The translations under genes and the position numbers were made by a program. Of a stretch of 64,000 bases of DNA, positions 37,409 through 60,287 are shown one piece after another (the first letter of the stretch is position 1; each line of letters starts with the position of its first letter). This DNA comes from Desulfurivibrionaceae bacterium (GTDB taxonomy: Bacteria; Desulfobacterota; Desulfobulbia; Desulfobulbales; UBA5123), in NCBI GenBank assembly GCA_030145325.1, contig JAQYVW010000002.1, positions 5,619 to 69,618 on the forward strand. Reading direction: 5' to 3'. Under the pieces are notes generated by a model, which saw only the letters and a program-made list of their open reading frames with translations, was not told the DNA's origin and searched no databases.

Positions 37409-40400
37409 ATGATTATGAATTACACACAACTATGGCAACGGCTGGAAGCAGCCGGGCAGCCTGTCTATGTGCAAGGGGACAAGCCGGACTGGTTGGTTCC
37501 TGATCTGCCCACCGATGAACTTTTGCAACAGTTGCAGGTAGGGGGAACCGCTGCAGATCTTTTAAGCCGGGAACGGTTGTTGGGTCAACTGGACCCTGCC
37601 TCAGGAAGGCCATATCAAGGGCGGGGCGGCAGTCTGCAATTAACCGAGTTAAAGGAATGCTGGTTTCATCTTACCGATAACTGTAATTTGGCTTGCCGTC
37701 ACTGTCTGTTCAGCGCTTCGCCGGCGGCAACCCGCACCCTGAGCAGAGCGCAGCTTGAAAAGGGGTTAGGCGAAGCCCGCGCCCTTGGCTGCACCCTTTT
37801 CTATTTCACTGGTGGCGAGCCCTTTGTCTATCCTGATTTTGTTGCCATTCTCGCCGATCTTCTTCGGGATCAGGCCGTGCATGCGGTGGTGTTAACCAAC
37901 GGGATGCTCTTGGGTGAGCATCTTGCGGCCCTGGCGCAATTGCCCGCTGACCGCCTGCATCTGCAAATCAGTATGGACGGCCTTGAGGAAAATCATCAAC
38001 GGTTGCGTGGTGCGGGTACCTTTTCGCGCTTACTGGCCAATCTTGAGGCTATTCAAGGCGCCGGGTTTGCGGTCACCCTGTCGGTGGCGGTGAATAGCGC
38101 TAATGTTGATGAGTTACCTGCGCTGGTGGAGTTTGCCGCTGCCCATGGGGTGAAGAATGTCCATTTGCTCTGGCATTTTGTCCGGGGCAAGGGCAGTCTG
38201 GCGCAGTTTGTGGAACCGGCGCTGATTTTGCCGCAGTTGCTCGCGGCCCAGAAGGTGGCCGAAGCAAGAGGGGTTATTATTGATAATGTTGAATCCCTGC
38301 GCAGTCAGGTGTTCAGCACCCCCGGCACCCGTTTTGACCTGAGCAACACCGCCTGGGAGTCGCTGGCGGTGGGGCCGGATGGGATGATCTATCCTTCTCC
38401 GGCCCTGGTGGGGATGGAGGAGTTAAACTGCGGTGCTCTTGCCCATGGCCTGGCCACGGTTTGGCGACAAAGCCCGGTTCTGCAGAAGATTAGGGCCACT
38501 TCGCTCATTGATGCCAGCCAATATCAAGAAAATCCGTTGGCTTTGATCATCGGCGGTGGCGACATCGATCACAGCTATCTGGCCGGGGGGGATTTTGTCG
38601 GCCATGATCCTTATCTGGAGCTTTATAATGGGTTGGCCCTCTGGTTGATTAGCGAGCAGGCCCTTCGTTATCCCAATCCACAGGCTGGCGATATCCTCCT
38701 CAGGATGGGCGACGTGCGTTATGATTGCCCCGAAAGTAGTGATGTCGCCCTCACCCATTGTAATTGTGTGATTTCCCTGGCCGATGATCGGGGTCATAGT
38801 TCGGTGCGGGAGTTTTACGGGGCGGCGGCGGTTAACGCCAACGAGGAGATCGCCAACCCCTTTGCCCCGGCTCAGGCTGAGGCTGAGGCTGATTATATCC
38901 CGACGGAGGTGAAGAAAAAATCCTACGGCTGCGGCAGTCCGGTAAGTGATGCGGCTTTACAGGCTGGTGAGGTGCTGGTTGATCTCGGCAGTGGCAGTGG
39001 CATTGAGTGTTTCATGGCGGCGGCGAAGGTGGGGGCCGAAGGCAGGGTATACGGCATCGACATGACCGATGAGATGCTCAAGTTGGCCCGGAAGTCGCAA
39101 GCAGAGGTGACGACAAAGCTTGGCTACGACAATATCGAGTTCAAGAAAGGTTTTCTCGAAGATCTTCCTCTGGATAATGATAGCGCCGACGCAGTGATCT
39201 CCAACTGTGTGATCAACTTAAGCCCGGACAAACGACAAACCTTTCATGAGATCCACCGGATCTTGAAGCCGGGTGGTCGGTTGGTGGTTTCCGATATCGT
39301 CACCGATGGAACGATCCCGGTGTGGATCAAAAACGATGCGCAGTTTCGTGGTGAATGTCTGGGTGGTGCCCTCCAGCAAGAGCAGTTGCTGGCCATGTTG
39401 CGGGCGGCGGGCTTTGGCGGCCTCACCTTGGTGAAGCGCTTTCCCTATCGCCAGGAGGGGGGGGTAACTTTTTATTCCCTGACCTTCCGGGCCTATAAAC
39501 CCACTCCGGCGCAGGAGGTGGAGGTAATCTATCGTGGCCCTTTTGCGGCGGTGAGTACTGAGTCCGGCGTGTTGTTGCCGCGTGGTCGCCGAGTAAGGAT
39601 TTCCCTCTCTGAGGCGGGCACCTTGGACGATTCGGTGTTTGTGGTTGACCCGGCTGGCGCGGTGGTCAATATGAGCCTCAGCAATAGTTGTTGCGATGCT
39701 GCGCCCCAGCCCACCTTGATGCCCCTTGCTGATCTCGCTCCCGTGCCGCAGGCACCTAGTTGTTGCGGGGGGGAGGAGCAACCGGCAGAGGTTGCTGCCG
39801 AAAAGATTGTACCTTTGGGGCTGCTGATAACGTCGCCAACGCCCACCAATAATGGTCGCCACCAGGCCGGGTGCATGGTCTGTGGTGGCGATCTTTCTTA
39901 CCTTGCCAAGGCCGAGAGGGCTGAATGCTATTACTGTGGCGGCAATCAACGGGTTAACGCGGTCTGCGGTCAGGGCCATTATGTCTGTGACGACTGTCAT
40001 CAGCAGGATGGTCTTTCCGCCATCCGCTTGCTCTGTGCCGAAACCAAAGAAAAGGATATGCTCACCCTCTTGGCCAAGATTCGCCGTCATCCGGCCATCC
40101 CCATGCATGGGCCGGAACATCACGCCATGGTGCCGGGGATTATCCTTGCCACCTATCGTAACCAGGGTGGGCCCATCAGTCGGGAGGACATCTTGACCGG
40201 CATTGAGCGGGGTAGCAAGGTGCCCGGTGGTGTTTGTGGTTTCTGGGGGAACTGCGGGGCCGCGGCGGGGGTGGGGATCGCCTTCAGCGTTATTCTTAAG
40301 GCCACGCCTCTTACCGCTGCCAGTCGTCAGCAGGCACAGGCCATCACTGCCCAGGTTTTGCGCAGGATCGCGGCGGTGAAGGGTGGGCGGTGTTGCCAGC

Positions 40401-40585
40401 GGGAAACAACCACCGCATTGCAGGAGGCCGCAACGTTTTCGGTGGGGATCTTACCGGTTTCCCTGTTGGCGGAAGATGTGTCGGCCTGTGAGCAATTTCA
40501 GCGCAACAAGGAATGCATTCGCAAGCAGTGCCCGCTTTGGGCTGAGTCCACAAAAGGTGAAGTTTCCTCAGGAGAGCGGTCATGA
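37409..40585 (+). CDS. Tri-domain fusion: radical SAM domain, ArsM-type As(III) S-adenosylmethionine methyltransferase, and a C-terminal Cys/His-rich (DUF5714-like) domain (1058 aa)
   Basis: rSAM: CWFHLTDNCNLACRHC (C92/C96/C99), FTGGEPF, and a cysteine-less SPASM-like hairpin VGPDGMIYPSP. ArsM core: SYGCGSP (C508), VLVDLGSGSGIECF, YGIDMTDEML, ISNCVINLSPDK (C600), LKPGGRLVVSDIV and GECLGGAL (C650). CC pairs occur at residues 761-762 and 785-786. C-terminus: CMVCGG...CYYCGG...CDDCH, HGPEHHAMVPG, GVCGFWGNCGAA and GGRCCQRE. Confidence 0.8.
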   Translation: MIMNYTQLWQRLEAAGQPVYVQGDKPDWLVPDLPTDELLQQLQVGGTAADLLSRERLLGQLDPASGRPYQGRGGSLQLTELKECWFHLTDNCNLACRHCLFSASPAATRTLSRAQLEKGLGEARALGCTLFYFTGGEPFVYPDFVAILADLLRDQAVHAVVLTNGMLLGEHLAALAQLPADRLHLQISMDGLEENHQRLRGAGTFSRLLANLEAIQGAGFAVTLSVAVNSANVDELPALVEFAAAHGVKNVHLLWHFVRGKGSLAQFVEPALILPQLLAAQKVAEARGVIIDNVESLRSQVFSTPGTRFDLSNTAWESLAVGPDGMIYPSPALVGMEELNCGALAHGLATVWRQSPVLQKIRATSLIDASQYQENPLALIIGGGDIDHSYLAGGDFVGHDPYLELYNGLALWLISEQALRYPNPQAGDILLRMGDVRYDCPESSDVALTHCNCVISLADDRGHSSVREFYGAAAVNANEEIANPFAPAQAEAEADYIPTEVKKKSYGCGSPVSDAALQAGEVLVDLGSGSGIECFMAAAKVGAEGRVYGIDMTDEMLKLARKSQAEVTTKLGYDNIEFKKGFLEDLPLDNDSADAVISNCVINLSPDKRQTFHEIHRILKPGGRLVVSDIVTDGTIPVWIKNDAQFRGECLGGALQQEQLLAMLRAAGFGGLTLVKRFPYRQEGGVTFYSLTFRAYKPTPAQEVEVIYRGPFAAVSTESGVLLPRGRRVRISLSEAGTLDDSVFVVDPAGAVVNMSLSNSCCDAAPQPTLMPLADLAPVPQAPSCCGGEEQPAEVAAEKIVPLGLLITSPTPTNNGRHQAGCMVCGGDLSYLAKAERAECYYCGGNQRVNAVCGQGHYVCDDCHQQDGLSAIRLLCAETKEKDMLTLLAKIRRHPAIPMHGPEHHAMVPGIILATYRNQGGPISREDILTGIERGSKVPGGVCGFWGNCGAAAGVGIAFSVILKATPLTAASRQQAQAITAQVLRRIAAVKGGRCCQRETTTALQEAATFSVGILPVSLLAEDVSACEQFQRNKECIRKQCPLWAESTKGEVSSGERS

Positions 40586-46714: not shown

Positions 46715-49147
46715 TCAATTGGGGTAGGGCCAAGGCAGCATTTCTCCTGGGCAGCGTCCTTGCGGGCAGCCCGGTTCAACCGCGATGCTGCTGCCGTTGG
46801 ATCCACCTCGCCAGAGGGCGGCTCGTTGTCGGGAAACAGTGTTGATGGTGATTTGGCGCTGATTCACCTGGTGGTCGTCGTCGATGGCGGTGACCATTAT
46901 TTTCGGCCCGGAAGATGATGCGGCGGCGGTATAGAACGATGATGGAACCACAAAGGAGATGATGGAACCTTCTTCGTTCATTTTTTTGATCCGAATCGGC
47001 GTGCCGCCGGTTTGTTCCCAGTTGAAGTGCAGGGTGGCGCGATTTTCATCGCGGCTGGCACTGGCATCAATGGTTACCACCTCGCCCACTTGATAAGTCT
47101 TGGCCAGCGGGCTTACCTGAACTTGCGGTGGCGGCGTGCCCTTTGCCATCATCAGTCTAACCTTCCGTTTTGGGGAGTAGGTTTTGCCCATTTTAAAGCG
47201 GTAAGTGATGCTTTCGCGACCACTGAAATATGGATCAGGTTGGTAACGATATCGAGTTGGATTTACTTTGGATAATTGCCCATGCAAATCCTTGCCAAGG
47301 ATCTGGACGCTGACATTTTTACCGAAGGGGGCGCTATTGGCCTCTGCCCAGATTTTTCGCCAGTCGAGATCCAAGCTTTCGGTGCTGCGCATGGAGATGG
47401 TGATGTTTTTTGCGGTGGTGCCGGTTGCTTTCGGTTTTTCCGTCATGGCCATGGTTGGGGGGGGGGCGGCGAGATTAGGGCCGGAAATAACGATGTCCGC
47501 CGGTTCGCTTGCCCCTTGGCCGTCGCTGACCAGAAAGGTGAAGCGGTCTTCGCCGGGAAAGTTGTTGTTGGGCAGATAGGTTATTTGGGGAGGTTCTCCC
47601 GAAATTCTGCCGTGGGCAGGGGCATTGGTTATTTCAAAGGTGAGGGGGTCATCTTCCTTGTCGGCCGCGGTGAGTAAGATGGCCAGCTCGCCGCCCTTGG
47701 TAGGCATTTTGTAATCTGCAGCAACGGCCTGGGGCAAGGTATTGACTTCCTCCGGGGGGGCGGCCGTTTCCGGCACCAGTTCCGACATGGTAATGGCAGG
47801 TTTCTTGTTGGGGTGGAGGTAAAAATAGCCCCCGACGAGAAGTGCTAAACTGAGCATAGCAGCAGCGCCCATAACCTTTTTGTTCTTTAGCATCGCTAGT
47901 ATTGGCAGAGTTTTAGATGCTTTGTGCTCAGACATGGAGGTGATGGTTTCTTCTCCCACGGGGCCGTCGGCCAAAAAGTCCGGCAATGCCTGAGTAGCTT
48001 CATCATCATTGAAGAGGGCATTCGCGTCAACTGTCTCACCAGCGGTTATCGGTTCTTCGGTTCCTAAGGTGAAGTCTTCAGCGCTGAGGCCAAAATCTTC
48101 TTCGCCCAGGGTGAAGGATTCATCGTCTCCCTTGTCTTCGTCAAGTAGTTCTGTAAAATCAACCTCTTCAGATTTGAAGGACTTGTCTTTGGGGGCACTT
48201 TCTTCTTCGTTAAAATCGTTGAAGAGTTGGTCGATGTCGTCATCCTGACTGCCTGTATTACTTACTGTGCCGCCATCCATATCTCCGAAAAGATCATCGA
48301 TCTCGGATTGATCAATGGACTCGTCTCCGTTCGCGGCCAGGGATTCCAAGGCGTTGTCGGGAGCAAGATTGGCATCACTGGCATCGTTTTCACCAAATAA
48401 GGCGTCGATGTCATTTTGACTGACCGGGCCACTGTCGTCTGCACTTGCCGCGTCAACGGCCTGATCATCACCACCAAGCAGGGCATCGATTTCGGATTGA
48501 TCAATGGCGTCGTCGCCAGCGTTAAGTTCCGGCTCCGGCGTGGTCGCGGGCGTATCAACGTCCCCACTGAGCAGGGCGTCGATTTCGGATTGATCAATGG
48601 CGTCGCCGCCAGCGTTAACTTCCGGCTCCGGCGTGGCTGCGGGCGTATCACCGCCCCCGCTGAGCAGGGCATCGATATCTGATTGATCAATGGCGTCGCC
48701 GCCAGCGTTAACTTCCGGCTCCGGCGTGGCCGCGGGCGTATCACCGCCCCCACTGAGCAGGGCATCGATATCTGATTGATCGATGGCGTCGCCGCCAGCG
48801 TTAACTTCCGGCTCCGGCGTGGCTGCGGGGGTATCATCGCCCCCACTGAGCAGGGCATCGATATCTGATTGATCAATGGCGTCGCCGCCAGCGTTAACTT
48901 CCGGCTCCGGCGTTGCTGCTGGCGCATCACCGCCCAGGAGGGCATCAATGGCAGATTGGTCAATGGGCCCGTCTTGTTCGGCTGCTTCCGTTGGCGGAGC
49001 TGCTGCGGCCAGATCCTCATCGTTGTTGCCCAATAAGGCTTCATCGATGTCGGACTGATCTATTTGCGCACCGGTTTTGTCAGCTTCTTCAAAATCATCA
49101 AGCCAATCGTCTATTTCGGCAGAGGTGTTTTTTTCTTCATCGGCCAT
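46715..49147 (-). CDS. Single-pass membrane protein: an acidic cytoplasmic N-terminus with about nine FliM-N-terminus-like [IL]DQS[DE]IDALL motifs, one TM helix, and an extracytoplasmic Ig/cadherin-like region (810 aa)
   Basis: ATG at 49147. Motif copies are QIDQSDIDEALLG, PIDQSAIDALLGG, AIDQSDIDALLSGG (3 copies), AIDQSEIDALLSG, AIDQSEIDALLGG, VSQNDIDALFG and SIDQSEIDDLFG. The TM helix VMGAAAMLSLALLVGGYFYL is at about residues 425-444 (nt 47816-47875). The C-terminal region contains DPLTFEITNAPAHGRISGEPPQITYLPNNNFPGEDRFTFLVSDGQG. Confidence 0.85.
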   Translation of the reverse strand: MADEEKNTSAEIDDWLDDFEEADKTGAQIDQSDIDEALLGNNDEDLAAAAPPTEAAEQDGPIDQSAIDALLGGDAPAATPEPEVNAGGDAIDQSDIDALLSGGDDTPAATPEPEVNAGGDAIDQSDIDALLSGGGDTPAATPEPEVNAGGDAIDQSDIDALLSGGGDTPAATPEPEVNAGGDAIDQSEIDALLSGDVDTPATTPEPELNAGDDAIDQSEIDALLGGDDQAVDAASADDSGPVSQNDIDALFGENDASDANLAPDNALESLAANGDESIDQSEIDDLFGDMDGGTVSNTGSQDDDIDQLFNDFNEEESAPKDKSFKSEEVDFTELLDEDKGDDESFTLGEEDFGLSAEDFTLGTEEPITAGETVDANALFNDDEATQALPDFLADGPVGEETITSMSEHKASKTLPILAMLKNKKVMGAAAMLSLALLVGGYFYLHPNKKPAITMSELVPETAAPPEEVNTLPQAVAADYKMPTKGGELAILLTAADKEDDPLTFEITNAPAHGRISGEPPQITYLPNNNFPGEDRFTFLVSDGQGASEPADIVISGPNLAAPPPTMAMTEKPKATGTTAKNITISMRSTESLDLDWRKIWAEANSAPFGKNVSVQILGKDLHGQLSKVNPTRYRYQPDPYFSGRESITYRFKMGKTYSPKRKVRLMMAKGTPPPQVQVSPLAKTYQVGEVVTIDASASRDENRATLHFNWEQTGGTPIRIKKMNEEGSIISFVVPSSFYTAAASSSGPKIMVTAIDDDHQVNQRQITINTVSRQRAALWRGGSNGSSIAVEPGCPQGRCPGEMLPWPYPN
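48470..48967. repeat. In-frame 93-bp (31-aa) tandem repeat, about 5 copies, nearly identical at the DNA level
   Basis: The unit encodes TPAATPEPEVNAGGDAIDQSDIDALLSGGGD. Successive units start at residues about 77, 108, 139, 170 and 201. The central units differ by only a few bases by eye. Confidence 0.85.
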
Positions 49148-49211: not shown

Positions 49212-49748
49212 TTATTTTACCTTTTCAGTAAGAACGGTGGTGTGCAAAGCTCGGTAAAGCGGCTCGGACATTTCAACGGCAATCACATGGGAACGATTTT
49301 CGCCATATTCGTTGCGACCGCTGATGTGGATGCGCAGGTATCCGTCCACCTCCTGGATTAATCCGGTAAGTTCCTGGTTTTCTGAAGAGAGGTGTTTATG
49401 GGAGAACTGGGCGCGGGTTTCGTTATTGATCATGGCCAGCATCTGGTCGGCAAGGACCACCCCTAACATGGAAATTTTTCTTTTTGAAGCAATGGTTGCA
49501 AAGGGATGGACGATTACCTCGGTTGGAGTGAAAAAATCATAGAATGTACTAGTAGTATCATTGCAGATGTTGTTCACCAAGGACGTGAGTGACGAGTAGT
49601 TTCCTTTGTCTTTGCTGACAGCTTGTGGCGAATTTGCGTTAGCATTGTTTGTTGTCTGGCGGGCCTGGGCTGTCAAAGGGGCGCAGGCAATAATTAGCAG
49701 GCAGGCCCATGTAATCAGGGATGAGTTTATCTTTGCTGAGGTGCGCAT
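49212..49748 (-). CDS. Secreted protein, divergent member of the FlgO-like family encoded just upstream
   Basis: Signal peptide MRTSAKINSSLITWACLLIIACAPLTAQA. VIVHPFATIASKRKISMLGVVLADQMLAMINN aligns with VAVVDAVPLSDLKRETEFGRLISEYMLTDLAD in the next gene and LAVCSFVDLKKLTRTSSFGRYLAEQLMSEFQQ in the one after. Confidence 0.45.
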   Translation of the reverse strand: MRTSAKINSSLITWACLLIIACAPLTAQARQTTNNANANSPQAVSKDKGNYSSLTSLVNNICNDTTSTFYDFFTPTEVIVHPFATIASKRKISMLGVVLADQMLAMINNETRAQFSHKHLSSENQELTGLIQEVDGYLRIHISGRNEYGENRSHVIAVEMSEPLYRALHTTVLTEKVK

Positions 49749-49783: not shown

Positions 49784-50590
49784 TTAGTGACTCATACCGT
49801 TGACGGCAATGGTGAATGGCTGTTCCGGGGCGTGGAAGAGGCCCAGCAGTTCGCGGTTCAACGGTAAGGTGTAGCGCCATGATGTTTCCACCAGGCCGGA
49901 TTTGAGGCCCACCAGTCTGCCTTGCAGGATCAGGGTTTTCCTGGTGTTGGTGAAGGTGGAGACCAGAACATAATCCAGCATGGGAGAATCAGTTGCCAAT
50001 TCACCGATGTTGCGGGAGAGAATGAATTCACCGGTCTGGGGCAGAATGTTGATCTCCTTACCCATTCGTAATTCGGTGACCTTGAGGCCCCGGTCAGCAA
50101 GATCGGTAAGCATGTATTCGGAGATAAGCCGACCAAACTCTGTTTCGCGTTTTAGGTCAGACAGGGGCACGGCGTCAACCACAGCTACTCTGGCGGTGAG
50201 GTGTTTATCGCCGTCTTGTTTTAATTCGTAATAGACCTTACCGGCGATCTCTCGGCAGAATTCCGATAACTGTTTTTCCGTACCTAGAGATTGGGAAGCA
50301 TCAGGGGTGTATTCATAGATATAGGGAACGGTTTTTGCCACGGTGGTAGCGGTGGGGGGGGCTTCGGTAACAGCCGGAGTTTCATGCGTTGCCACGGGTG
50401 GTTCTGTAATAACCGGAGCTGTTTGCGTTGCCATGGGCGGTTCTGTAACAACCGGAGCTGTTTCTGTCACCATGGGCGGTTCTGAAACCGCAGTTTTGTT
50501 TGGTGAAGATGGCACTGTCGCACAACCCGTGCTTATTAGCAGACCAAGCCCGATGGTGCAGATCGCCAGGCGTGTGATGGATTTTTTCAT
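49784..50590 (-). CDS. FlgO-like lipoprotein with a Pro/Thr-rich repeat linker
   Basis: The ATG at 50590 gives MKKSITRLAICTIGLGLLISTGC (lipobox). The linker is EPPMVTETAPVVT / EPPMATQTAPVIT / EPPVATHETPAVT. The globular part ARVAVVDAVPLSDLKRETEFGRLISEYMLTDLADRGLKVTELR...GEFILSRNIGEL...VLVSTFT...LILQGRLV resembles FlgO/LpoB-type envelope proteins, by motif recall. Confidence 0.55.
   Translation of the reverse strand: MKKSITRLAICTIGLGLLISTGCATVPSSPNKTAVSEPPMVTETAPVVTEPPMATQTAPVITEPPVATHETPAVTEAPPTATTVAKTVPYIYEYTPDASQSLGTEKQLSEFCREIAGKVYYELKQDGDKHLTARVAVVDAVPLSDLKRETEFGRLISEYMLTDLADRGLKVTELRMGKEINILPQTGEFILSRNIGELATDSPMLDYVLVSTFTNTRKTLILQGRLVGLKSGLVETSWRYTLPLNRELLGLFHAPEQPFTIAVNGMSH
50361..50489. 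repeat. In-frame 39-bp (13-aa) tandem repeat, about 3.3 copies, inside the lipoprotein linker
   Basis: Plus-strand units are ggttctgtaataaccggagctgtttgcgttgccatgggc (50400-50438) and ggttctgtaacaaccggagctgtttctgtcaccatgggc (50439-50477), with a diverged copy at 50361-50399 and a partial copy after 50478. Confidence 0.75.
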
Positions 50591-50670
50591 TTCTGTTCCT
50601 CCCCAGGAAGCCTTCAAATGTTCGTTTTCGGTGTTATTGGTATGATAAATTATGTAATTATTTATGAATA

Positions 50671-51393
50671 TTATAATTCAAGTCGTTTCATGTAGACAAC
50701 GTCTCGCTCACCGGTTTGGGCTGAGGCTCGGTCTGCCAACAGGGTGGCCACAAGCTGATTGCGCGGAAATATCAGCGTAGAGCTGGTGAGCATGGTGGAG
50801 TTGCGGTTATCGATAATCCTGGCGTTGACCAGAACATTATTTCCGGCCAGGGTATAGGTGCCGGTGAGCACAGCCCCGGCAGTTATGGACGGATTCAAAT
50901 CCTCCGGGTTTCGGGACAGGGTGTACTCGCCGCGTTTTTCCTGAATCATCAGGCTGGTGGTTTTACGCATTTCGACCACCGTGTAGCCACGTTGTTGGAA
51001 TTCACTCATCAGTTGTTCGGCCAGGTAGCGGCCAAAGGATGAGGTGCGGGTGAGTTTCTTGAGATCAACGAAGGAGCAGACGGCAAGGCCATCGGCAAGT
51101 TCTCCCACTTGTGGATCGGCATCGGCGAGGTGGTTTTCCAGTTCCTGGGCCATCAGTCTAATGGAACCGGCCAGGCCGGTTGCCTCTTGGGATGTTTGCG
51201 CCGTGGTCGCCACCGTGGTCACGGTTGGTGGTAGCGGTGGGGCGGCGAGAACCGGCGAGGGAAGAAGCCAGGCCAGGGTGAGCAAGGTTGAGGCTACGGA
51301 GAACAGGTAATGGCGCCTGTTGGTGGTAGTAGTACCCAACGAGTTAGATGGCGAGGGTTGCATATCTGATCTCTCTTCGTTAGTGTTGAACAT
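50671..51393 (-). CDS. FlgO-like secreted protein, first gene of the operon
   Basis: The core is LAVCSFVDLKKLTRTSSFGRYLAEQLMSEFQQRGYTVVEMR...GEYTLSRNPEDL...AVLTGTYTLAGNNVLVNARIID. The signal-like segment is HYLFSVASTLLTLAWLLPSPVLA. The start is probably the ATG at 51393 or 51363 rather than the GTG at 51438. Confidence 0.55.
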   Translation of the reverse strand: MFNTNEERSDMQPSPSNSLGTTTTNRRHYLFSVASTLLTLAWLLPSPVLAAPPLPPTVTTVATTAQTSQEATGLAGSIRLMAQELENHLADADPQVGELADGLAVCSFVDLKKLTRTSSFGRYLAEQLMSEFQQRGYTVVEMRKTTSLMIQEKRGEYTLSRNPEDLNPSITAGAVLTGTYTLAGNNVLVNARIIDNRNSTMLTSSTLIFPRNQLVATLLADRASAQTGERDVVYMKRLEL

Positions 51394-51455
51394 TTTGAAC
51401 CCGAATCTGGTTAGGCATAAGGCTTCGAGTTCTGTCACTTTAGAGTTTTATAACC

Positions 51456-51483
51456 CATCGGTATGATGATCTTTTTTCTTTAA
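51456..51483 (-). promoter_or_regulatory. Weak sigma-28 (FliA)-like promoter candidate upstream of the FlgO-like operon
   Basis: The minus strand reads TAAAG-aaaaaagatcatcata-CCGATGG, compared with the enteric consensus TAAA-N15-GCCGATAA. The spacing is off by one and the -10 element is partial. Confidence 0.2.
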
Positions 51484-51665
51484 TGGAAAAATGTGTGGTC
51501 GGTGACGGCTGTTGGCTGAATTTAACCTCTAGGCGGCTTGGATTACCAGATGTGGTGTAGGGTAATCCTCCGATACCGCTAAATATTGATCACTTGTTCC
51601 TGGCGGCTTGCTAAAAAAAATTGCGAAGTCGGTTGTTGCTGGGGAAAAGAAGGAAGCAAAAGACC

Positions 51666-52178
51666 ATGTCCGATAAGGAAAATTATTTATGCGATGAGGT
51701 TTTAATCCTCAGCGATTCAGGTGAGATTCCTGAGATCGCTTATCATACTACGCTCTATTATTTATGTGAAGATCCTGAGGGGCCGAATCTGACCTTGGAT
51801 GAGCGAGATCTGGCCCGGTTACAGGATGCGGTGCTGGCGCGTTGTCGGTGGATTATTATGCGGGATCTGGACCCGGAAAACCGGGGCGAAGGAATCTATC
51901 GAGGGGTGGCGCGCAGCAAGGCGAACTGGCAACGTCTTAAGAATTTTTGCCGACGGCAGGGGCGTGATGAGCCGGTGGAGCCCTTGCGGGGGGAGGTTGC
52001 CCAGGCCTTGCTTGATTTTTTGGGGCGGGAACTGGCCGAGGTGAAGGAAGGTGCTACTTCCTCTCTGAATTGTTGCCTTGCCGACCTGGAAGCCTTTGTG
52101 GTGGAGCTTGGCCTTGTCCCTGCCCTGTTGCCGGTGGGCTGGGAAAAACTCTGCCCAAAGCCCGAAGAAATAGTTTGA
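51666..52178 (+). CDS. Hypothetical cytoplasmic protein
   Basis: The ATG at 51666 is preceded by GAAGGAAG. The sequence MSDKENYLCDEVLILSDSGEIPEIAYHTTLYYLCEDPEG... matches no family I recognise. It is divergent from the FlgO-like operon. Confidence 0.5.
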   Translation: MSDKENYLCDEVLILSDSGEIPEIAYHTTLYYLCEDPEGPNLTLDERDLARLQDAVLARCRWIIMRDLDPENRGEGIYRGVARSKANWQRLKNFCRRQGRDEPVEPLRGEVAQALLDFLGRELAEVKEGATSSLNCCLADLEAFVVELGLVPALLPVGWEKLCPKPEEIV

Positions 52179-57339: not shown

Positions 57340-58986
57340 TTATGAGCGTAATGAGTGCAGAAGCTCAAGGGCATTGTCGCCGTCTTCCGGAAAGGTTGCG
57401 GTTTTGATCCGCAGTTCCAGGTTGGTGTCCAGTTGTTGCACCGCTGTATTGATTACTTCCGGAGCCTCCATACTATCATGCATGGGGAGAAGAATCGCCA
57501 CCGTATACAGACCGATACGGCTGCATTCATGAACCACGGAGATGTTTTTCGAGATGTCCACCGCCAGTTGTTGCACTTCATCTGAGGCTTCTTGAGCGCC
57601 CTTTTCTCCACAGATGTTGTTATAGTCCTTGATGCTGATCAATGCCAAGGAGAGGCTGCCGAAGTAATCGCGCATCTTGCTAATCTCGTCCTCAATGGTG
57701 GTGGTGAAGGCGTTGAAAGGACCTGCCTGCATGTCTTGCTTCGCCGCCTGATTCAGGCCGATTTGAAAATGCGGGGCCAGTGAGGTCGCAATGATGGCAA
57801 AGGATTTTTGTAGTTCTTCGTTGTCGATTTCCATGTCGGTTACGGCATGGACGGTGATTACGCCCACGGTGTTGCCGGAAGCTTTCAGGGGGACGACCAT
57901 GAACTCTTCCAGATCGTCGCAGCCGTTGGCAATGAAGGTTGCGCCCTGGTCGATGGTTTCACGTTGTTTGCTCAAGCAAGAGATGATGGTCGAGGACTTT
58001 GTCGGCTCCAAACCGTAAGTGCCTCGTTCCTGGATGGCGCCAGCGCCGTCCACCGCGAAGATCGCACATTCCTGCACATGGAAACCAAGGCTCAGCGCTT
58101 TTAAGATCAGGTCGACATTGTCGTTGATGGAATCACTCTTGTTGAGAATTTCACTGACATTAAAGAGAGCCATCAGTTCTTCCATCTGGGTTTTGATTCG
58201 TTGATTGCGCGCTTCAATGGTGTTCATCAGAGAATCGTAGGTGCTGTTGAGAATATCGATTTCGTCCTTGCCGTGCACCACGGTGTCGGCATTAGCTTCC
58301 TCGTCGCCGGCATACTGCATCTTCATTAACAGCTTGCGCAGTGGCTTCTTGACAAGAATATTGCCCAACAGAAAGCAGAGGATGATGGACGAGAGTAAGG
58401 TTGCCACTGCCGAGAAAATCAGCAATTTCCGGTTGTCGATGACCATCTTGTCGATGTCGTCGGTGGTGAAATCCACCATCAGCTTGCCCAGGACGTCGGT
58501 TTCCGGGTCGTGGCATTGGTGACAGCGTTCTTTGTTATGGATGGGGTTGACGTTGCGGAGAACCCGCGAGCCATTTTCGTCGGTGAAAAAGACGGTGAGG
58601 TTTTGCTGACTCAGCTGTGCTTTCTCATGGCAGATGCGGCAACTTTCCGCTGACTGGTCAAGCTGGACGTCGATGTCGTCATGGTCCTTGGCGTATTTTA
58701 CCGTGGCGTCCAGATCGATAATCTTGATGTCGCGGACCATGCTTTCTTTACCCACCGAGTCGATGATGAGTTGAAGTCCTTCGCCCTCATCGCCCAGCAT
58801 GGCATTCTCTAAGCTGCTCTTAATGGCGCTGCTGACCTTCGATGCTTCGCCGGTGGCGAGGTTCAGTAGCCGTTTTTCCGATAGTTTAACGCTGGCATTG
58901 GAAAAAAGGCTTATTACCGCAAACAGGCCGATGGTCATGGCCACGGCCATTTTGAAGCCGATACTGAACTTTACTTTCATTTTCAT
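57340..58986 (-). CDS. Membrane sensor: periplasmic di-heme c domain, TM, GAF domain, and a degenerate GGDEF-like domain
   Basis: TM1 is AVAMTIGLFAVISLF. Two CXXCH motifs in the periplasmic loop are CRICH and CHQCH. TM2 is LLIFSAVATLLSSIILCFLLGNILV. GAF-like: FHVQECAIFAVD...FMVVPLKASGNTVGVITVHA. The C-terminus LSLALISIKDYNNICGEKGAQEASDEVQQLAVDI...CSRIGLYTVAILLP shows GGDEF-fold spacing but has IGLYT in place of GGDEF. Confidence 0.7.
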   Translation of the reverse strand: MKMKVKFSIGFKMAVAMTIGLFAVISLFSNASVKLSEKRLLNLATGEASKVSSAIKSSLENAMLGDEGEGLQLIIDSVGKESMVRDIKIIDLDATVKYAKDHDDIDVQLDQSAESCRICHEKAQLSQQNLTVFFTDENGSRVLRNVNPIHNKERCHQCHDPETDVLGKLMVDFTTDDIDKMVIDNRKLLIFSAVATLLSSIILCFLLGNILVKKPLRKLLMKMQYAGDEEANADTVVHGKDEIDILNSTYDSLMNTIEARNQRIKTQMEELMALFNVSEILNKSDSINDNVDLILKALSLGFHVQECAIFAVDGAGAIQERGTYGLEPTKSSTIISCLSKQRETIDQGATFIANGCDDLEEFMVVPLKASGNTVGVITVHAVTDMEIDNEELQKSFAIIATSLAPHFQIGLNQAAKQDMQAGPFNAFTTTIEDEISKMRDYFGSLSLALISIKDYNNICGEKGAQEASDEVQQLAVDISKNISVVHECSRIGLYTVAILLPMHDSMEAPEVINTAVQQLDTNLELRIKTATFPEDGDNALELLHSLRS

Positions 58987-59060
58987 GGGTACTGTTCTCC
59001 TGGCTCAGGCGATATCTCGCTTGGCGAAGGTTTTGCACGATGAGGATGGACAAGCTATTT

Positions 59061-59203
59061 AGTGCCTGTCCATAAATGGTCTTTTTGCCGTATCTCTGCG
59101 TCATGCTCAAAAAATAATGCTCGGAATATCATGTATATGCCTGTGCTTATTTTTTTCGCAGTCCTTAATCTACGACAAAAATCCTCATTTATGGACAGAC
59201 ACC
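59061..59203. repeat. MITE-like element, full-length copy B (about 142 bp) with 17-bp terminal inverted repeats
   Basis: The left end is gtgcctgtccataaatg, and the reverse complement of the right end is gtgtctgtccataaatg (16 of 17 identical). The interior is AT-rich and non-coding. It is intergenic between the heme sensor and the FapA-like gene. Confidence 0.7.
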
Positions 59204-59237
59204 ATTTAGAAATGTTGGTGTAAGCAGCTTGACAACA

Positions 59238-60287
59238 TTATTCTCCTAACTGGGCGCTTTCGATCTTCATATTTTGTACGAAAAAGGCAGTTTTGTCCAC
59301 TGGCGCAGTAAGTACCCGGTTGCAGTTTTCGATGGTGATTTTTGTTTTCGGGTGACCCTGCTTGGTGATAATGATCCGGTTGCTACCCAACGCTTCAGTG
59401 ATTTTTTTTCTGACTACTTCCTTGTGGCTCTGGCCCGAAATAATTTCTCCGGCAACCTCTCTGAACCGCTTAATATCCATGGCCATCTGCACTTTATCTT
59501 CATAAGGAAGGGTTTCGATATTCTTCCCAAGTTTTTTTACCAGGTCGATGGTGTTTTGTAGCCGGTGTTGTTCTCCTTGCAAGTTAATGTGGTTTTTATC
59601 GATGGCAAGGAGTTCTTGGAAAAGGGCGCGACACTCTTTCGGTTTGACCAGAAGCTGGCAGGGGGATTGGCCATCCCCACATTCTTTAACCCTGATTCTG
59701 GTTTGACTGTAGATCTTCGAGTTGGTGACCGTGCCTTCAATGCGGAGACGACCTTTGGCGGCAATGGTACTGTCGGTGACGTCGCCGTCGATGACCACAT
59801 CACCAATGCAGCGAATGTCCACCGAGGAGAACGGTTCAATGGAGGTATTTTTGATGGTGACGCGATCGGCGGCACTGAGGATGATGTGTTTGTCGCTGGA
59901 ACCTTGAATCTTACCGACGATAACCACTTCTCCCTTGGCGCTAGTGATGTTGCAGCCAGGGTCGATGTTGCCGTTGATGGTGACGGTTTCCCCAGCTTCG
60001 ATTTTGGTTTCTGGCGGTACATCACAGCAGAGTTCCACTGCCCCATTAAAGGTTATGTCTTCCGTTATCTCTGATGGGGCCAGGGTTTCTCCCGGTTTGC
60101 CGAGGTAACCATCCGGAGTGACGACGGTCACGTCGGTAATGCCCCGTTCTTTGAGCCTTTGCACGAATGTGCTTGAAAGTTCCACGCCGCGAGCAATAAT
60201 GGGCAGTTCGCCGCCGAATTCATGGTCGAAGATGTCGGCAGCCACTACCATGCCGTTGCTTATTTTGTCTAAGGAAACTTTTCTCAT
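59238..60287 (-). CDS. FapA-like (DUF342) protein
   Basis: The central beta-helix has periodic G-[DN]-[IV] turns (INGNIDPGCNITSAKGEVVIVGKIQG, IRCIGDVVIDGDVTDSTIAAKGRLRIEGTVTNSKIYS). A C-terminal coiled-coil follows (LFQELLAIDKNHINLQGEQHRLQNTIDLVKKL). Confidence 0.65.
   Translation of the reverse strand: MRKVSLDKISNGMVVAADIFDHEFGGELPIIARGVELSSTFVQRLKERGITDVTVVTPDGYLGKPGETLAPSEITEDITFNGAVELCCDVPPETKIEAGETVTINGNIDPGCNITSAKGEVVIVGKIQGSSDKHIILSAADRVTIKNTSIEPFSSVDIRCIGDVVIDGDVTDSTIAAKGRLRIEGTVTNSKIYSQTRIRVKECGDGQSPCQLLVKPKECRALFQELLAIDKNHINLQGEQHRLQNTIDLVKKLGKNIETLPYEDKVQMAMDIKRFREVAGEIISGQSHKEVVRKKITEALGSNRIIITKQGHPKTKITIENCNRVLTAPVDKTAFFVQNMKIESAQLGE

What the first reader, a model, noticed from the sequence alone, without database searches (positions are those of the whole stretch)
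46715..49147. Membrane protein carrying a tandem array of FliM-N-terminus-like (LSQxEIDALL) docking peptides
Seen in sequence: the cytoplasmic N-terminal ~420 residues are extremely acidic. They contain nine clear copies of [IL/V][DS]Q[SAN][DE]IDALL/F-G, for example AIDQSDIDALLSGG, plus one degenerate copy (DDIDQLFNDF). A single TM helix follows, then a ~365-aa beta-rich Ig/cadherin-like ectodomain. Established knowledge: the conserved N-terminal peptide of the flagellar switch proteins FliM and FliY (E. coli FliM begins MGDSILSQAEIDALLNG) is the docking site for phosphorylated CheY. In polar flagellates the same peptide binds the MinD-like ATPase FlhG. Each copy here matches that peptide at about 8 of 12 positions with conservative changes elsewhere. 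The protein has no FliM middle domain and no FliN/SpoA domain. Inference: this is not a switch component. It may be a membrane-anchored multivalent display of switch-like docking peptides, acting as a CheY-P sink or scaffold, or as a HubP/FimV-like landmark with reversed topology that recruits CheY or FlhG to an envelope complex. I know of no described protein with this architecture.
Basis: partly seen in the sequence, partly recalled or inferred. Interest (0 to 1): 0.85.

Follow-up and report, generated by a model that had tools for sequence, protein, structure and literature searches.

The report
Membrane protein displaying repeated CheY-docking peptides
A single-pass membrane protein of sulfur bacteria carries nine to ten cytoplasmic copies of the short peptide by which flagellar switch proteins capture the chemotaxis signal CheY, and it sits in a conserved, probably flagellar operon, so it looks like an undescribed way of gathering a signalling protein next to the flagellar motor.

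Summary
ORF 46715-49147(-) encodes 810 aa: an acidic, disordered N-terminus with nine [ILV][DS]Q.[DEA]ID.[AL][LF] motifs plus one degenerate copy, one TM helix, and three periplasmic beta-sandwich domains. Composition-matched shuffles give about 0.0002 motifs.

The motif is the FliM/FliY/CheZ-type docking peptide. A profile of 141 repeat units ranks FliM residues 5-20 second among 177,635 PDB sequences. The same arrays occur in genuine FliN, FliY and CheZ proteins. They also occur in 17 FliL paralogs, two of which lie directly after flhF-flhG-fliA.

More than 100 Desulfobulbales homologs keep the architecture, with 1-10 motifs. All eight loci examined keep the operon FlgO-FlgO-178aa-Ig. A sigma-28-like element (TAAAG-N16-CCGAT) precedes the operon in all eight, with one mismatch in one locus. 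It is the only match in the 64-kb window.

Best reading (about 0.55): a late-flagellar, envelope-spanning accessory protein that displays multivalent docking peptides for CheY-P, or alternatively FlhG, beside the motor. Binding was not tested. I found no description of such arrays in the literature. I rate it a new variant of a known kind, interest about 0.75.

The parts
46715..49147 (-). Gene for the 810-aa protein: acidic cytoplasmic N-terminus with the motif array, one TM helix, three periplasmic beta-sandwich domains
   Evidence: ORF list; translation and motif scan; Pfam; AlphaFold2 model; more than 100 homologs with the same layout
49091..49117 (-). Conserved N-terminal motif E-I-D-D-W-L-D-D-F (aa 11-19); partner unknown
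   Evidence: D13, W15, L16 and D18 are at least 90% conserved in a 78-sequence family alignment
48218..49063 (-). Array of nine FliM-N-terminus-like docking motifs (aa 29-38, 62-71, 91-100, 122-131, 153-162, 184-193, 215-224, 242-251, 278-287) plus one degenerate copy (aa 301-310)
   Evidence: Regex and shuffles. Family consensus is xxELDQSDIDALLxGG, with Q 100% by construction of the extraction regex, D 97% and L 99% conserved, and variable linkers. Profile hit to FliM residues 5-20. Helices predicted on six motifs
48477..48935 (-). 93-bp tandem DNA repeat (4.9 copies, 93% identical) that generated five of the motif copies
   Evidence: Tandem Repeats Finder; codon comparison of the five units
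48023..48172 (-). Conserved acidic, F-x-L-rich segment between the array and the TM helix (aa 326-375)
   Evidence: Family consensus E.V.F.EV...F.L...FD.DEF.FGD..PDIPDE
47813..47875 (-). Single transmembrane helix (aa 425-445); N-terminus in the cytoplasm
   Evidence: Hydropathy scan; AlphaFold2 helix 426-444; no signal peptide precedes the 420-aa acidic N-terminus
47480..47743 (-). Periplasmic domain 1, Big_9 / Cadherin_5-like beta-sandwich (aa 469-556)
   Evidence: Pfam E 5.4e-18 and 8.3e-11; pLDDT above 90; Foldseek hits to tandem cadherin/Ig ectodomains
47138..47410 (-). Periplasmic domain 2, beta-sandwich (aa 580-670)
   Evidence: AlphaFold2 pLDDT above 90
46838..47128 (-). Periplasmic domain 3, PKD-like beta-sandwich (aa 674-770)
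   Evidence: Weak Pfam matches to K319L-like_PKD and PKD_4; AlphaFold2
49212..49748 (-). Operon gene 3: 178-aa secreted protein of unknown fold, conserved immediately upstream of the Ig gene
   Evidence: Signal-peptide-like N-terminus seen in the sequence; orthologs in L001-L004, L006, L007, and genes of 177-183 aa at the same place in L006, L007 and L011; no Pfam or NCBIfam family; profile comparison with FlgO inconclusive
49784..50617 (-). Operon gene 2: FlgO-domain lipoprotein (lipobox LISTGC; likely start at the ATG at 50590) with a roughly 70-aa Pro/Thr-rich tether
   Evidence: Pfam FlgO E 2.6e-25; profile hit to V. cholerae H-ring FlgO 9yds, E 4e-19; lipobox Cys present in five of six orthologs
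50671..51438 (-). Operon gene 1: FlgO-domain protein with a signal peptide (likely start at the ATG at 51363, MQPSPS...)
   Evidence: Pfam FlgO E 1.3e-35; orthologs begin MQPSP; PDB FlgO hit
51457..51482 (-). Sigma-28 (FliA)-like promoter element TAAAG-N16-CCGAT upstream of the operon
   Evidence: Only match in 64 kb (0.16 expected). One exact match at the equivalent place in L001, L002, L003, L006, L007 and L011, and TCAAG-N16-CCGAT in L004, with diverged spacers. Known consensus is TAAAG...GCCGATAA (PMC12784957)

Best explanation
The 810-aa protein is the inner-membrane subunit of a flagellum-associated envelope complex specific to Desulfobulbales. It is encoded in one late-flagellar (sigma-28-type) operon with two FlgO-family periplasmic/outer-membrane proteins and a small secreted protein.

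Its three periplasmic Ig/cadherin-like domains would tie it to that periplasmic assembly beside the motor. Its long, disordered, acidic cytoplasmic tail displays nine to ten copies of the short amphipathic-helix peptide that FliM, FliY and CheZ use to capture phosphorylated CheY. FlhG also binds that same peptide on FliM/FliY.

The tail would therefore work as a membrane-tethered, multivalent docking array that concentrates or buffers CheY-P next to the C-ring. That would tune how the motor reads the chemotaxis signal. Copy number changes quickly through tandem duplication.

What is shown: the architecture, the motif identity at sequence level, the conservation of the family, the operon and the promoter element.

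What is inferred: location at the motor, CheY-P as the ligand, and the effect on switching.
For: Motif identity:
- Of 18,950 NCBIfam models, only FliY (profile positions 3-42) and FliM (positions 3-27) touch the N-terminus.
- A 141-unit repeat profile ranks FliM residues 5-20 second of 177,635 PDB sequences, E 0.07.
- The identical LDQS.IDALL variant occurs as 3-5 internal copies in FliY proteins (P0128, P0148, P0151, P0171, P0194).
- It occurs as 3 to about 13 copies in FliN-type proteins (P0139, P0192, P0198).
- It occurs as three C-terminal copies in a CheZ (P0196), and twice at the N-terminus of a FliM fragment (P0134).
- AlphaFold2 predicts helices only on the motifs.
- Motif positions D, L, L are 97-99% conserved and I is 89% conserved (Q was fixed by the extraction pattern), while the linkers vary.

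Flagellar link of such arrays in other proteins:
- 17 FliL paralogs carry 5-17 motifs. Their C-domain profile hits FliL 7sgn at E 5.5e-6 and 9hmf at E 3.9e-4.
- Two of these paralogs lie directly after flhF-flhG-fliA inside flagellar clusters.
- A TPR-type array protein lies next to motA-motB.

Flagellar link of this operon:
- FlgO-FlgO-178aa-Ig is present in all eight loci examined.
- The FlgO genes match the V. cholerae H-ring subunit FlgO, E 4e-19 (its role is described in bioRxiv 10.64898/2025.12.02.691832).
- The conserved TAAAG-N16-CCGAT element precedes the operon.

Organisms: relatives that carry the family (Thiovibrio, Desulfurivibrionaceae) belong to a family whose cultured members are motile with subpolar flagella (PMC12142623).

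CheY over FlhG: sigma-28 genes are late genes (filament, stator, chemotaxis), which fits CheY better than the early-acting FlhG. This step is inference.
Against: - No binding data exist, and no complex could be modelled with the tools available.
- The single-motif similarity to FliM is statistically weak on its own (E 0.07). The top PDB hit is a PKS docking helix.
- The operon is never inside a flagellar gene cluster. It always lies between a DUF7826 gene and rpe.
- The FlgO Pfam domain is not restricted to flagellar proteins (my own knowledge).
- The promoter spacer is 1 nt longer than in the P. aeruginosa fliC promoter, and FliA dependence is untested.
- I could not check whether every genome with the operon has flagella, CheY or an intact FliM N-terminus.
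- Contexts of several other array proteins were uninformative.
Confidence: 0.55

Rival explanations
1. The array docks the MinD-like ATPase FlhG rather than CheY. The protein would then act as a landmark or sink that controls flagellar number and placement by holding FlhG at the envelope complex.
For: FlhG binds FliM/FliY through the same N-terminal EIDAL peptide (PMC12826062; bioRxiv 10.1101/2022.04.21.489128). The FliL-type array genes sit immediately after flhF-flhG-fliA. From my own recollection of the HubP literature, not checked here: HubP, an acidic-repeat membrane protein, helps localise FlhG in Vibrio.
Against: The same arrays occur at the C-terminus of a CheZ, a protein whose known partner is CheY-P. 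A sigma-28-like promoter implies late expression, whereas FlhG acts at MS/C-ring initiation (inference).
Confidence: 0.2
2. The operon builds a non-flagellar envelope complex, for example one linked to pili, gliding or surface structures. The array would recruit some other CheY-like response regulator to it.
For: The operon is never inside a flagellar cluster. The ectodomain is a generic Ig/cadherin fold with no flagellum-specific match. The FlgO domain occurs outside flagellar systems (own knowledge). Desulfobulbaceae include non-flagellated lineages (own knowledge).
Against: The conserved sigma-28-type element precedes the operon. The FlgO genes clearly match the Vibrio H-ring subunit. Every specific domain fused to such arrays elsewhere is flagellar or chemotactic: FliN, FliY, CheZ, FliL.
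Confidence: 0.13
3. The tail is a generic acidic disordered region (spacer, cation binder) whose short helices associate with each other or drive condensation. On this view the resemblance to FliM is convergent and has no functional meaning.
For: The composition is extremely acidic. The best PDB match of the repeat profile is a PKS docking helix, and other weak hits are unrelated helices. Five of the copies are recent duplicates.
Against: Composition-matched shuffles give about 0.0002 motifs. Motif positions are almost invariant across more than 430 units from about 100 proteins, while linkers are free to vary. The same motif is found on FliN, FliY, CheZ and FliL proteins.
Confidence: 0.07

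Closest known systems
N-terminal peptide of FliM and FliY (LSQxEIDALL, 'EIDAL' motif), docking site for CheY-P and FlhG
   Same: Same core pattern, L-[SD]-Q-x-[DE]-I-D-A-L-L-x-G. It is predicted helical within a disordered segment and cytoplasmic. The repeat profile hits FliM residues 5-20.
   Different: Nine to ten tandem copies instead of one. The array sits on a single-pass membrane protein with no FliM middle domain, CheC domain or FliN/SpoA domain. The residue before Q is usually D rather than S, a variant also seen in genuine FliY arrays.
C-terminal CheY-binding peptide of CheZ
   Same: A short acidic amphipathic helix of similar pattern that tethers CheY-P. A CheZ homolog with three copies of the present motif exists (P0196).
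   Different: The window protein has no CheZ phosphatase domain, so any 'sink' action would be by binding only and not by dephosphorylation.
HubP / FimV polar landmark proteins
   Same: As I recall the HubP/FimV literature: a single TM helix, an extremely acidic repetitive cytoplasmic region and a periplasmic anchoring domain, proposed to recruit ParA/MinD-type ATPases.
   Different: The domain order along the sequence is reversed. There is no LysM domain and no FimV C-terminal domain. The repeats here are a defined FliM-type motif. No homology was detected.
FliL, and the FliL paralogs with motif arrays found here
   Same: Single-pass inner-membrane proteins with a periplasmic domain beside the motor. 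The array-bearing FliL paralogs have the same layout of cytoplasmic array, TM helix and periplasmic domain.
   Different: The periplasmic part of the window protein is three Ig-like domains, not a FliL domain. The A5 FliL-type profile does not hit it.
Vibrio H-ring (FlgO/FlgP/FlgT) and other periplasmic flagellar scaffolds
   Same: The two upstream genes are FlgO homologs. In V. cholerae FlgO is an outer-membrane lipoprotein that forms a 58-fold ring around the motor.
   Different: No FlgP or FlgT was recognised in the operon. The FlgO proteins here carry long Pro/Thr-rich tethers. An Ig-domain inner-membrane partner with a cytoplasmic docking array is not part of the described H-ring.
ZomB of Vibrio and Shewanella
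   Same: A single-transmembrane protein outside the canonical switch that is required for control of rotation direction (bioRxiv 10.1101/2021.07.06.451403).
   Different: This is only a functional precedent.

Membership tests
FliM (flagellar switch protein) | N-terminal CheY-P-binding peptide LSQxEIDALL | tested here: met
   Nine to ten copies are present. Weak matches to TIGR01397 positions 3-27 and to PDB FliM residues 5-20, E 0.07.
FliM (flagellar switch protein) | FliM middle domain (PF02154) | tested here: not met
   No Pfam hit at E up to 1.
FliM / FliN / FliY | C-terminal FliN/SpoA domain (PF01052) | tested here: not met
   No Pfam hit. The C-terminus is made of Ig-like domains.
FliY / CheC phosphatases | CheC/CheX domain | tested here: not met
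   No Pfam hit.
HubP / FimV landmark proteins | Periplasmic LysM domain and FimV C-terminal domain | tested here: not met
   Pfam and NCBIfam give neither domain.
HubP / FimV landmark proteins | Single TM helix with a highly acidic repetitive cytoplasmic region | tested here: met
   TM at aa 425-445; 117 D+E against 8 K+R in 420 aa; repeats present. This is a resemblance only.
FliL | Periplasmic FliL domain after a single TM helix | tested here: not met
   The A5 profile, which hits FliL 7sgn and 9hmf, does not hit P0001. Pfam FliL is absent.
Bacterial Ig-like / cadherin-like domain proteins (Big_9, Cadherin_5) | Beta-sandwich domain matching the Pfam model above its threshold | tested here: met
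   Big_9 66.1 bits (cut-off 23.6) and Cadherin_5 42 bits (cut-off 26.5); fold confirmed.
FlgO family (the two upstream genes) | FlgO domain | tested here: met
   Pfam 122.5 and 89.2 bits (cut-off 22.6). Profile hit to V. cholerae FlgO 9yds/9yfg, E 4e-19.
FlgO family (the two upstream genes) | N-terminal lipobox cysteine for outer-membrane anchoring | tested here: inconclusive
   The second gene has LISTGC, and five of its six orthologs have a lipobox Cys. The first gene has a signal peptide without a conserved Cys.
FlgO family (the two upstream genes) | Assembly into a ring around the flagellar LP-rings | not testable with these tools
   Requires cryo-ET of the organism.
Sigma-28 (FliA) late flagellar regulon | Promoter with -35 TAAAG and -10 (G)CCGATAA | tested here: met
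   TAAAG-N16-CCGAT is present at the same place in all eight loci, with one mismatch in L004. The spacer is 1 nt longer than in P. aeruginosa fliC, and spacer length is said not to be conserved (PMC12784957).
Sigma-28 (FliA) late flagellar regulon | Transcription depends on FliA | not testable with these tools
   Requires transcript mapping or a fliA mutant.

The most novel reading that the evidence does not exclude
There is an unrecognised class of flagellar motor accessory proteins: single-pass inner-membrane scaffolds with Ig-type (this family), FliL-type or TPR-type periplasmic domains. Their cytoplasmic tails carry 3-17 CheY-P docking peptides and would form a high-valency CheY-P reservoir, or cloud, around the C-ring. 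That would add a tunable and rapidly evolving layer (through repeat number) to motor switching sensitivity in many non-model bacteria.
Probability: 0.35. Interest if true: 0.9.

Novelty: new variant of a known kind. Interest (0 to 1): 0.75.

Why it matters
In the textbook picture CheY-P reaches the motor by free diffusion and is caught by one peptide on each FliM subunit. If this reading is right, some bacteria instead surround the motor with membrane-tethered arrays of that same peptide.

Such arrays could raise or buffer the local CheY-P concentration. They could reshape the motor's sensitivity and adaptation. They could also evolve quickly by gaining or losing repeats.

The finding would physically couple a periplasmic FlgO-type scaffold to cytoplasmic signalling through a single polypeptide.

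Several experiments become direct: peptide-CheY binding, the effect of repeat number on switching bias, and cryo-ET of Desulfurivibrio or Thiovibrio motors.

It also flags unstudied families that carry the same device: FliL paralogs, FliN, FliY and CheZ with multiplied motifs, and TPR-type membrane proteins.

Tried and rejected
- AlphaFold2 of the 178-aa operon protein alone gave pLDDT 40, which is unusable.
- Comparisons of the 178-aa protein with FlgO were inconclusive: BLASTP found nothing, hhalign gave probability 30%, and the PDB profile search found nothing.
- Foldseek of the full model against the PDB returned only generic cadherin/Ig tandems.
- A sigma-54 pattern has no match in the operon's upstream region.
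- The sigma-70 and terminator scans were no more frequent than in shuffles.
- The profile of three concatenated motifs against the 5.8-billion-protein set returned only five small proteins.
- The second homolog search, with the N-terminus alone, was swamped by low-complexity words.
- The TPR-type array protein P0112 matched only designed or consensus TPR proteins in the PDB, so a PflB-like assignment is unsupported.
- Contexts of P0107, P0127 and P0130 were uninformative.
- Cluster look-up gave no organism names. The window protein itself is not in the contig index.
- Literature searches for tandem CheY-binding or EIDAL arrays found nothing relevant.
- I rejected filing the protein as FliM, FliY, FliL or HubP, because defining domains of each were tested and are absent.
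Full report
**1. What is in the sequence**

The ORF at 46715-49147 on the minus strand is real: 810 aa with an ATG start. Its first 420 residues contain 117 Asp+Glu and only 8 Lys+Arg.

This region holds nine matches to [ILVM][DSE]Q.[DEAS]ID.[ALF][LF], starting at aa 29, 62, 91, 122, 153, 184, 215, 242 and 278. A degenerate tenth copy (DDDIDQLF) lies near aa 301-310.

- In 20,000 shuffles that preserve the composition of this region, the mean motif count is 0.00015 and the maximum is 1.
- The motif is absent from the rest of the six-frame translation of the 64-kb window.
- Five copies stem from a recent 93-bp tandem repeat (48477-48935, 4.9 copies, 93% identical). Within these five, the only amino-acid change inside the motif is D to E.
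- The remaining copies are diverged at the DNA level, so the motif is maintained beyond simple recent duplication.

A single hydrophobic helix follows at aa 425-445. The C-terminal 365 aa match Big_9 (E 5e-18) and Cadherin_5 (E 8e-11), with a weak PKD-like match.

An AlphaFold2 model built on 78 homologs gives the following:

- a disordered N-terminus with short helices located exactly on six of the motifs (31-38, 93-100, 124-131, 155-162, 186-193, 248-251);
- a TM helix at 426-444;
- three beta-sandwich domains with pLDDT above 90.

Foldseek returns only generic tandem cadherin/Ig ectodomains.

Each copy shares 6-7 identical and 10-11 similar positions with FliM residues 5-16, rather than about 8 identical.

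**2. A conserved family and a conserved operon**

More than 100 proteins from Desulfobulbaceae, Desulfurivibrionaceae, Thiovibrio and unclassified Thermodesulfobacteriota share the layout of acidic motif array, TM helix and Ig-like ectodomain. They carry 1-10 motifs, most often 4.

I extracted 435 distinct repeat units by anchoring on the Q-x-x-[ILVM]-[DENS]-x-x-[LFMIV] core, so the conservation of Q reflects the extraction pattern. Among these units D is 97%, the first L is 99% and I is 89% conserved, and the flanks vary freely. The consensus is xxELDQSDIDALLxGG.

Copy number changes fast. Two proteins within one 90%-identity cluster have 3 motifs (613 aa) and 10 motifs (856 aa).

Three further genes lie upstream on the same strand:

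| Gene | Window coordinates | Features |
|---|---|---|
| FlgO-domain protein 1 | 50671-51438 | Signal peptide; Pfam FlgO E 1e-35 |
| FlgO-domain protein 2 | 49784-50617 | Lipobox LISTGC; long Pro/Thr-rich tether; Pfam FlgO E 3e-25 |
| 178-aa secreted protein | 49212-49748 | No recognised family |

The order FlgO-FlgO-~178aa-Ig is kept in all eight loci examined. Identity of the Ig protein falls as low as about 28-30% among them.

A profile of the FlgO genes hits the V. cholerae FlgO subunit in its solved in-situ structure (9yds/9yfg, E 4e-19). In V. cholerae FlgO is an outer-membrane lipoprotein that forms a 58-fold ring of the flagellar H-ring (bioRxiv 10.64898/2025.12.02.691832).

**3. A sigma-28-like promoter**

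The pattern TAAAG-N16-CCGAT occurs once in the 64-kb window (0.16 expected by chance). That single match is at 51457-51482 on the minus strand, just upstream of the first FlgO gene.

- The same pattern occurs exactly once, at the equivalent position, in L001, L002, L003, L006, L007 and L011.
- L004 has TCAAG-N16-CCGAT at that position.
- When the eight regions are written in register, only TTAAAG and CCGAT are conserved. The spacer and flanks have diverged in the distant loci.
- This matches the -35 (TAAAG) and -10 (GCCGATAA) elements of FliA promoters. The P. aeruginosa fliC promoter has a spacer 1 nt shorter, and spacer length is reported as not conserved (PMC12784957).

I take this as good, though indirect, evidence that the operon belongs to the late flagellar regulon. 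Cultured members of the Desulfurivibrionaceae, the family to which Thiovibrio is assigned, are motile vibrios with one or two thick subpolar flagella (PMC12142623).

**4. What the motif is**

Three unbiased comparisons point to the FliM/FliY N-terminal peptide.

- Of 18,950 NCBIfam models, the only ones that touch the N-terminus are FliY (profile positions 3-42) and FliM (positions 3-27). Both scores are weak.
- A profile of 141 repeat units searched against 177,635 PDB sequences places FliM residues 5-20 (ILSQAEIDALLNGDSD) second, at E 0.07. The first hit is a PKS docking helix.
- A phmmer search of the N-terminus against 1.84 billion representative proteins gives 86 hits at E of 1e-3 or better.

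In that third search most hits carry 3-17 copies of the motif. Of the 54 array proteins outside the Ig family that I scanned against Pfam, the only functionally specific domains found were flagellar or chemotactic:

- FliN C-terminal domain: P0139 with about 13 copies, beginning MSDILSQDELDALL; P0192 and P0198 with 3 copies.
- FliY (CheC/CheX plus FliN_C) with 3-5 internal copies of the same LDQS.IDALL variant.
- One CheZ with three C-terminal copies, the last at the very C-terminus, which is where (from my own knowledge of E. coli CheZ) the CheY-binding peptide lies.
- A FliM fragment with two N-terminal copies.

Seventeen further proteins combine 5-17 motifs, a TM helix and a roughly 130-aa domain. 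A profile of that domain hits FliL structures (7sgn E 5.5e-6; 9hmf E 3.9e-4). Two of these genes lie immediately after flhF-flhG-fliA inside large flagellar clusters. One of those clusters also encodes a canonical FliL, and a FliM that begins MGEILTQNEVDSLLSG.

A third class combines motifs, a TM helix and periplasmic TPR repeats. One member lies next to motA-motB.

The motif is thus the CheY-P/FlhG docking peptide in the sequence sense, and multiplying it is a recurrent device on flagellar proteins. I found no description of this in the literature.

**5. Most likely mechanism**

Topology follows from the sequence. A 420-aa acidic segment with no signal peptide stays in the cytoplasm, and the Ig-like domains face the periplasm.

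The periplasmic domains, together with the co-transcribed FlgO-type proteins and the small secreted protein, would form or join a periplasmic assembly at the flagellar base. The flexible tail would present nine to ten docking helices at the membrane near the C-ring.

I favour CheY-P as the ligand for two reasons. The same arrays occur on CheZ, and a sigma-28 promoter implies late expression together with chemotaxis and stator genes. FlhG, by contrast, acts at initiation of assembly. FlhG nevertheless remains a serious alternative, because it binds the same peptide on FliM/FliY (PMC12826062) and because the FliL-type genes adjoin flhG.

Whether the array raises the local CheY-P concentration (an antenna or tether) or buffers it (a sink) cannot be decided from sequence. 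My confidence in the overall statement is about 0.55.

**6. Rival explanations**

| Rival | Confidence | Main point |
|---|---|---|
| FlhG docking, control of flagellar number or placement | 0.20 | Same peptide binds FlhG; FliL-type genes adjoin flhG |
| Non-flagellar envelope complex recruiting another CheY-like regulator | 0.13 | Operon never inside a flagellar cluster; FlgO domains are not exclusively flagellar; countered by the promoter element |
| Generic acidic or self-associating region | 0.07 | Countered by the shuffles, the position-specific conservation and the company the motif keeps |

**7. Relation to known families**

The protein is not FliM, FliN, FliY, CheZ, FliL or HubP/FimV. 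For each, defining domains were tested and are absent.

It works like the FliM_N and CheZ_C docking peptides. As I recall HubP/FimV, it resembles them in spatial layout without detectable homology. Its closest relatives in design are the FliL- and TPR-type array proteins found here. ZomB is a published precedent for a single-TM protein that influences switching, but I could not compare sequences.

**8. Verdict**

I rate the finding a new variant of a known kind: a known docking motif in a new, multivalent, membrane-anchored architecture tied to a FlgO operon. Interest is about 0.75.

The main uncertainties are the absence of any binding evidence and the indirect nature of the flagellar assignment.

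Noticed in passing
window 51621-52178 (+): A DUF7826 gene lies divergently next to the FlgO operon in the window and in seven of the other loci (L001-L004, L006, L011; absent in L007). It may belong to the same system.
   Followed up: partly
L013 10001-11371 (P0115); also P0108, P0111, P0114-P0120, P0136, P0138, P0141, P0142, P0152, P0160, P0162, P0195: FliL paralogs with 5-17 FliM-N-like motifs in a long cytoplasmic N-terminus. In two contigs the gene follows flhF-flhG-fliA. L013 also encodes a canonical FliL and a FliM.
   Followed up: yes
P0139, P0192, P0198 (FliN type); P0128, P0148, P0151, P0171, P0194 (FliY); P0196 (CheZ); P0134 (FliM fragment): Genuine switch and chemotaxis proteins in which the CheY-docking peptide is multiplied: about 13 N-terminal copies on a FliN, 3-5 internal copies in FliY, three C-terminal copies on CheZ.
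   Followed up: partly
P0130-P0133; L014 8001-8294: Proteins of about 97 aa that consist of little more than three copies of the motif, starting MGDALSQSDLDALFG. The gene context gave no clue.
   Followed up: partly
L012 2591-7281: A soluble array protein with an unknown C-terminal domain (P0125) lies downstream of a ZorA-like (MotA-like) gene, an OmpA-domain gene and a 346-aa gene.
   Followed up: no
L008 5862-12227: A 1408-aa protein (motif array, TM helix, periplasmic TPR; P0112) is divergently adjacent to motA-motB. Eight TPR-type array proteins were seen in all.
   Followed up: partly
window 49091-49117 and 48023-48172 (-): Two further conserved short segments in the cytoplasmic tail have no known partner: E-I-D-D-W-L-D-D-L at the N-terminus, and an acidic F-x-L-rich stretch before the TM helix.
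   Followed up: no
P0006 vs P0129: Two orthologs within one 90%-identity cluster differ by seven motif copies (3 against 10), which shows rapid repeat expansion or contraction.
   Followed up: partly
window 37409-40585 (+): A 1058-aa fusion of a radical SAM domain, a class I methyltransferase and DUF5714.
   Followed up: no
window 57340-60287 (-): A protein with an MCP-type (Mcp40H-20) sensor domain lies next to a FapA-family (flagellar assembly protein A-like) gene. Apart from the FlgO genes, these are the only other motility-flavoured genes in the window.
   Followed up: no
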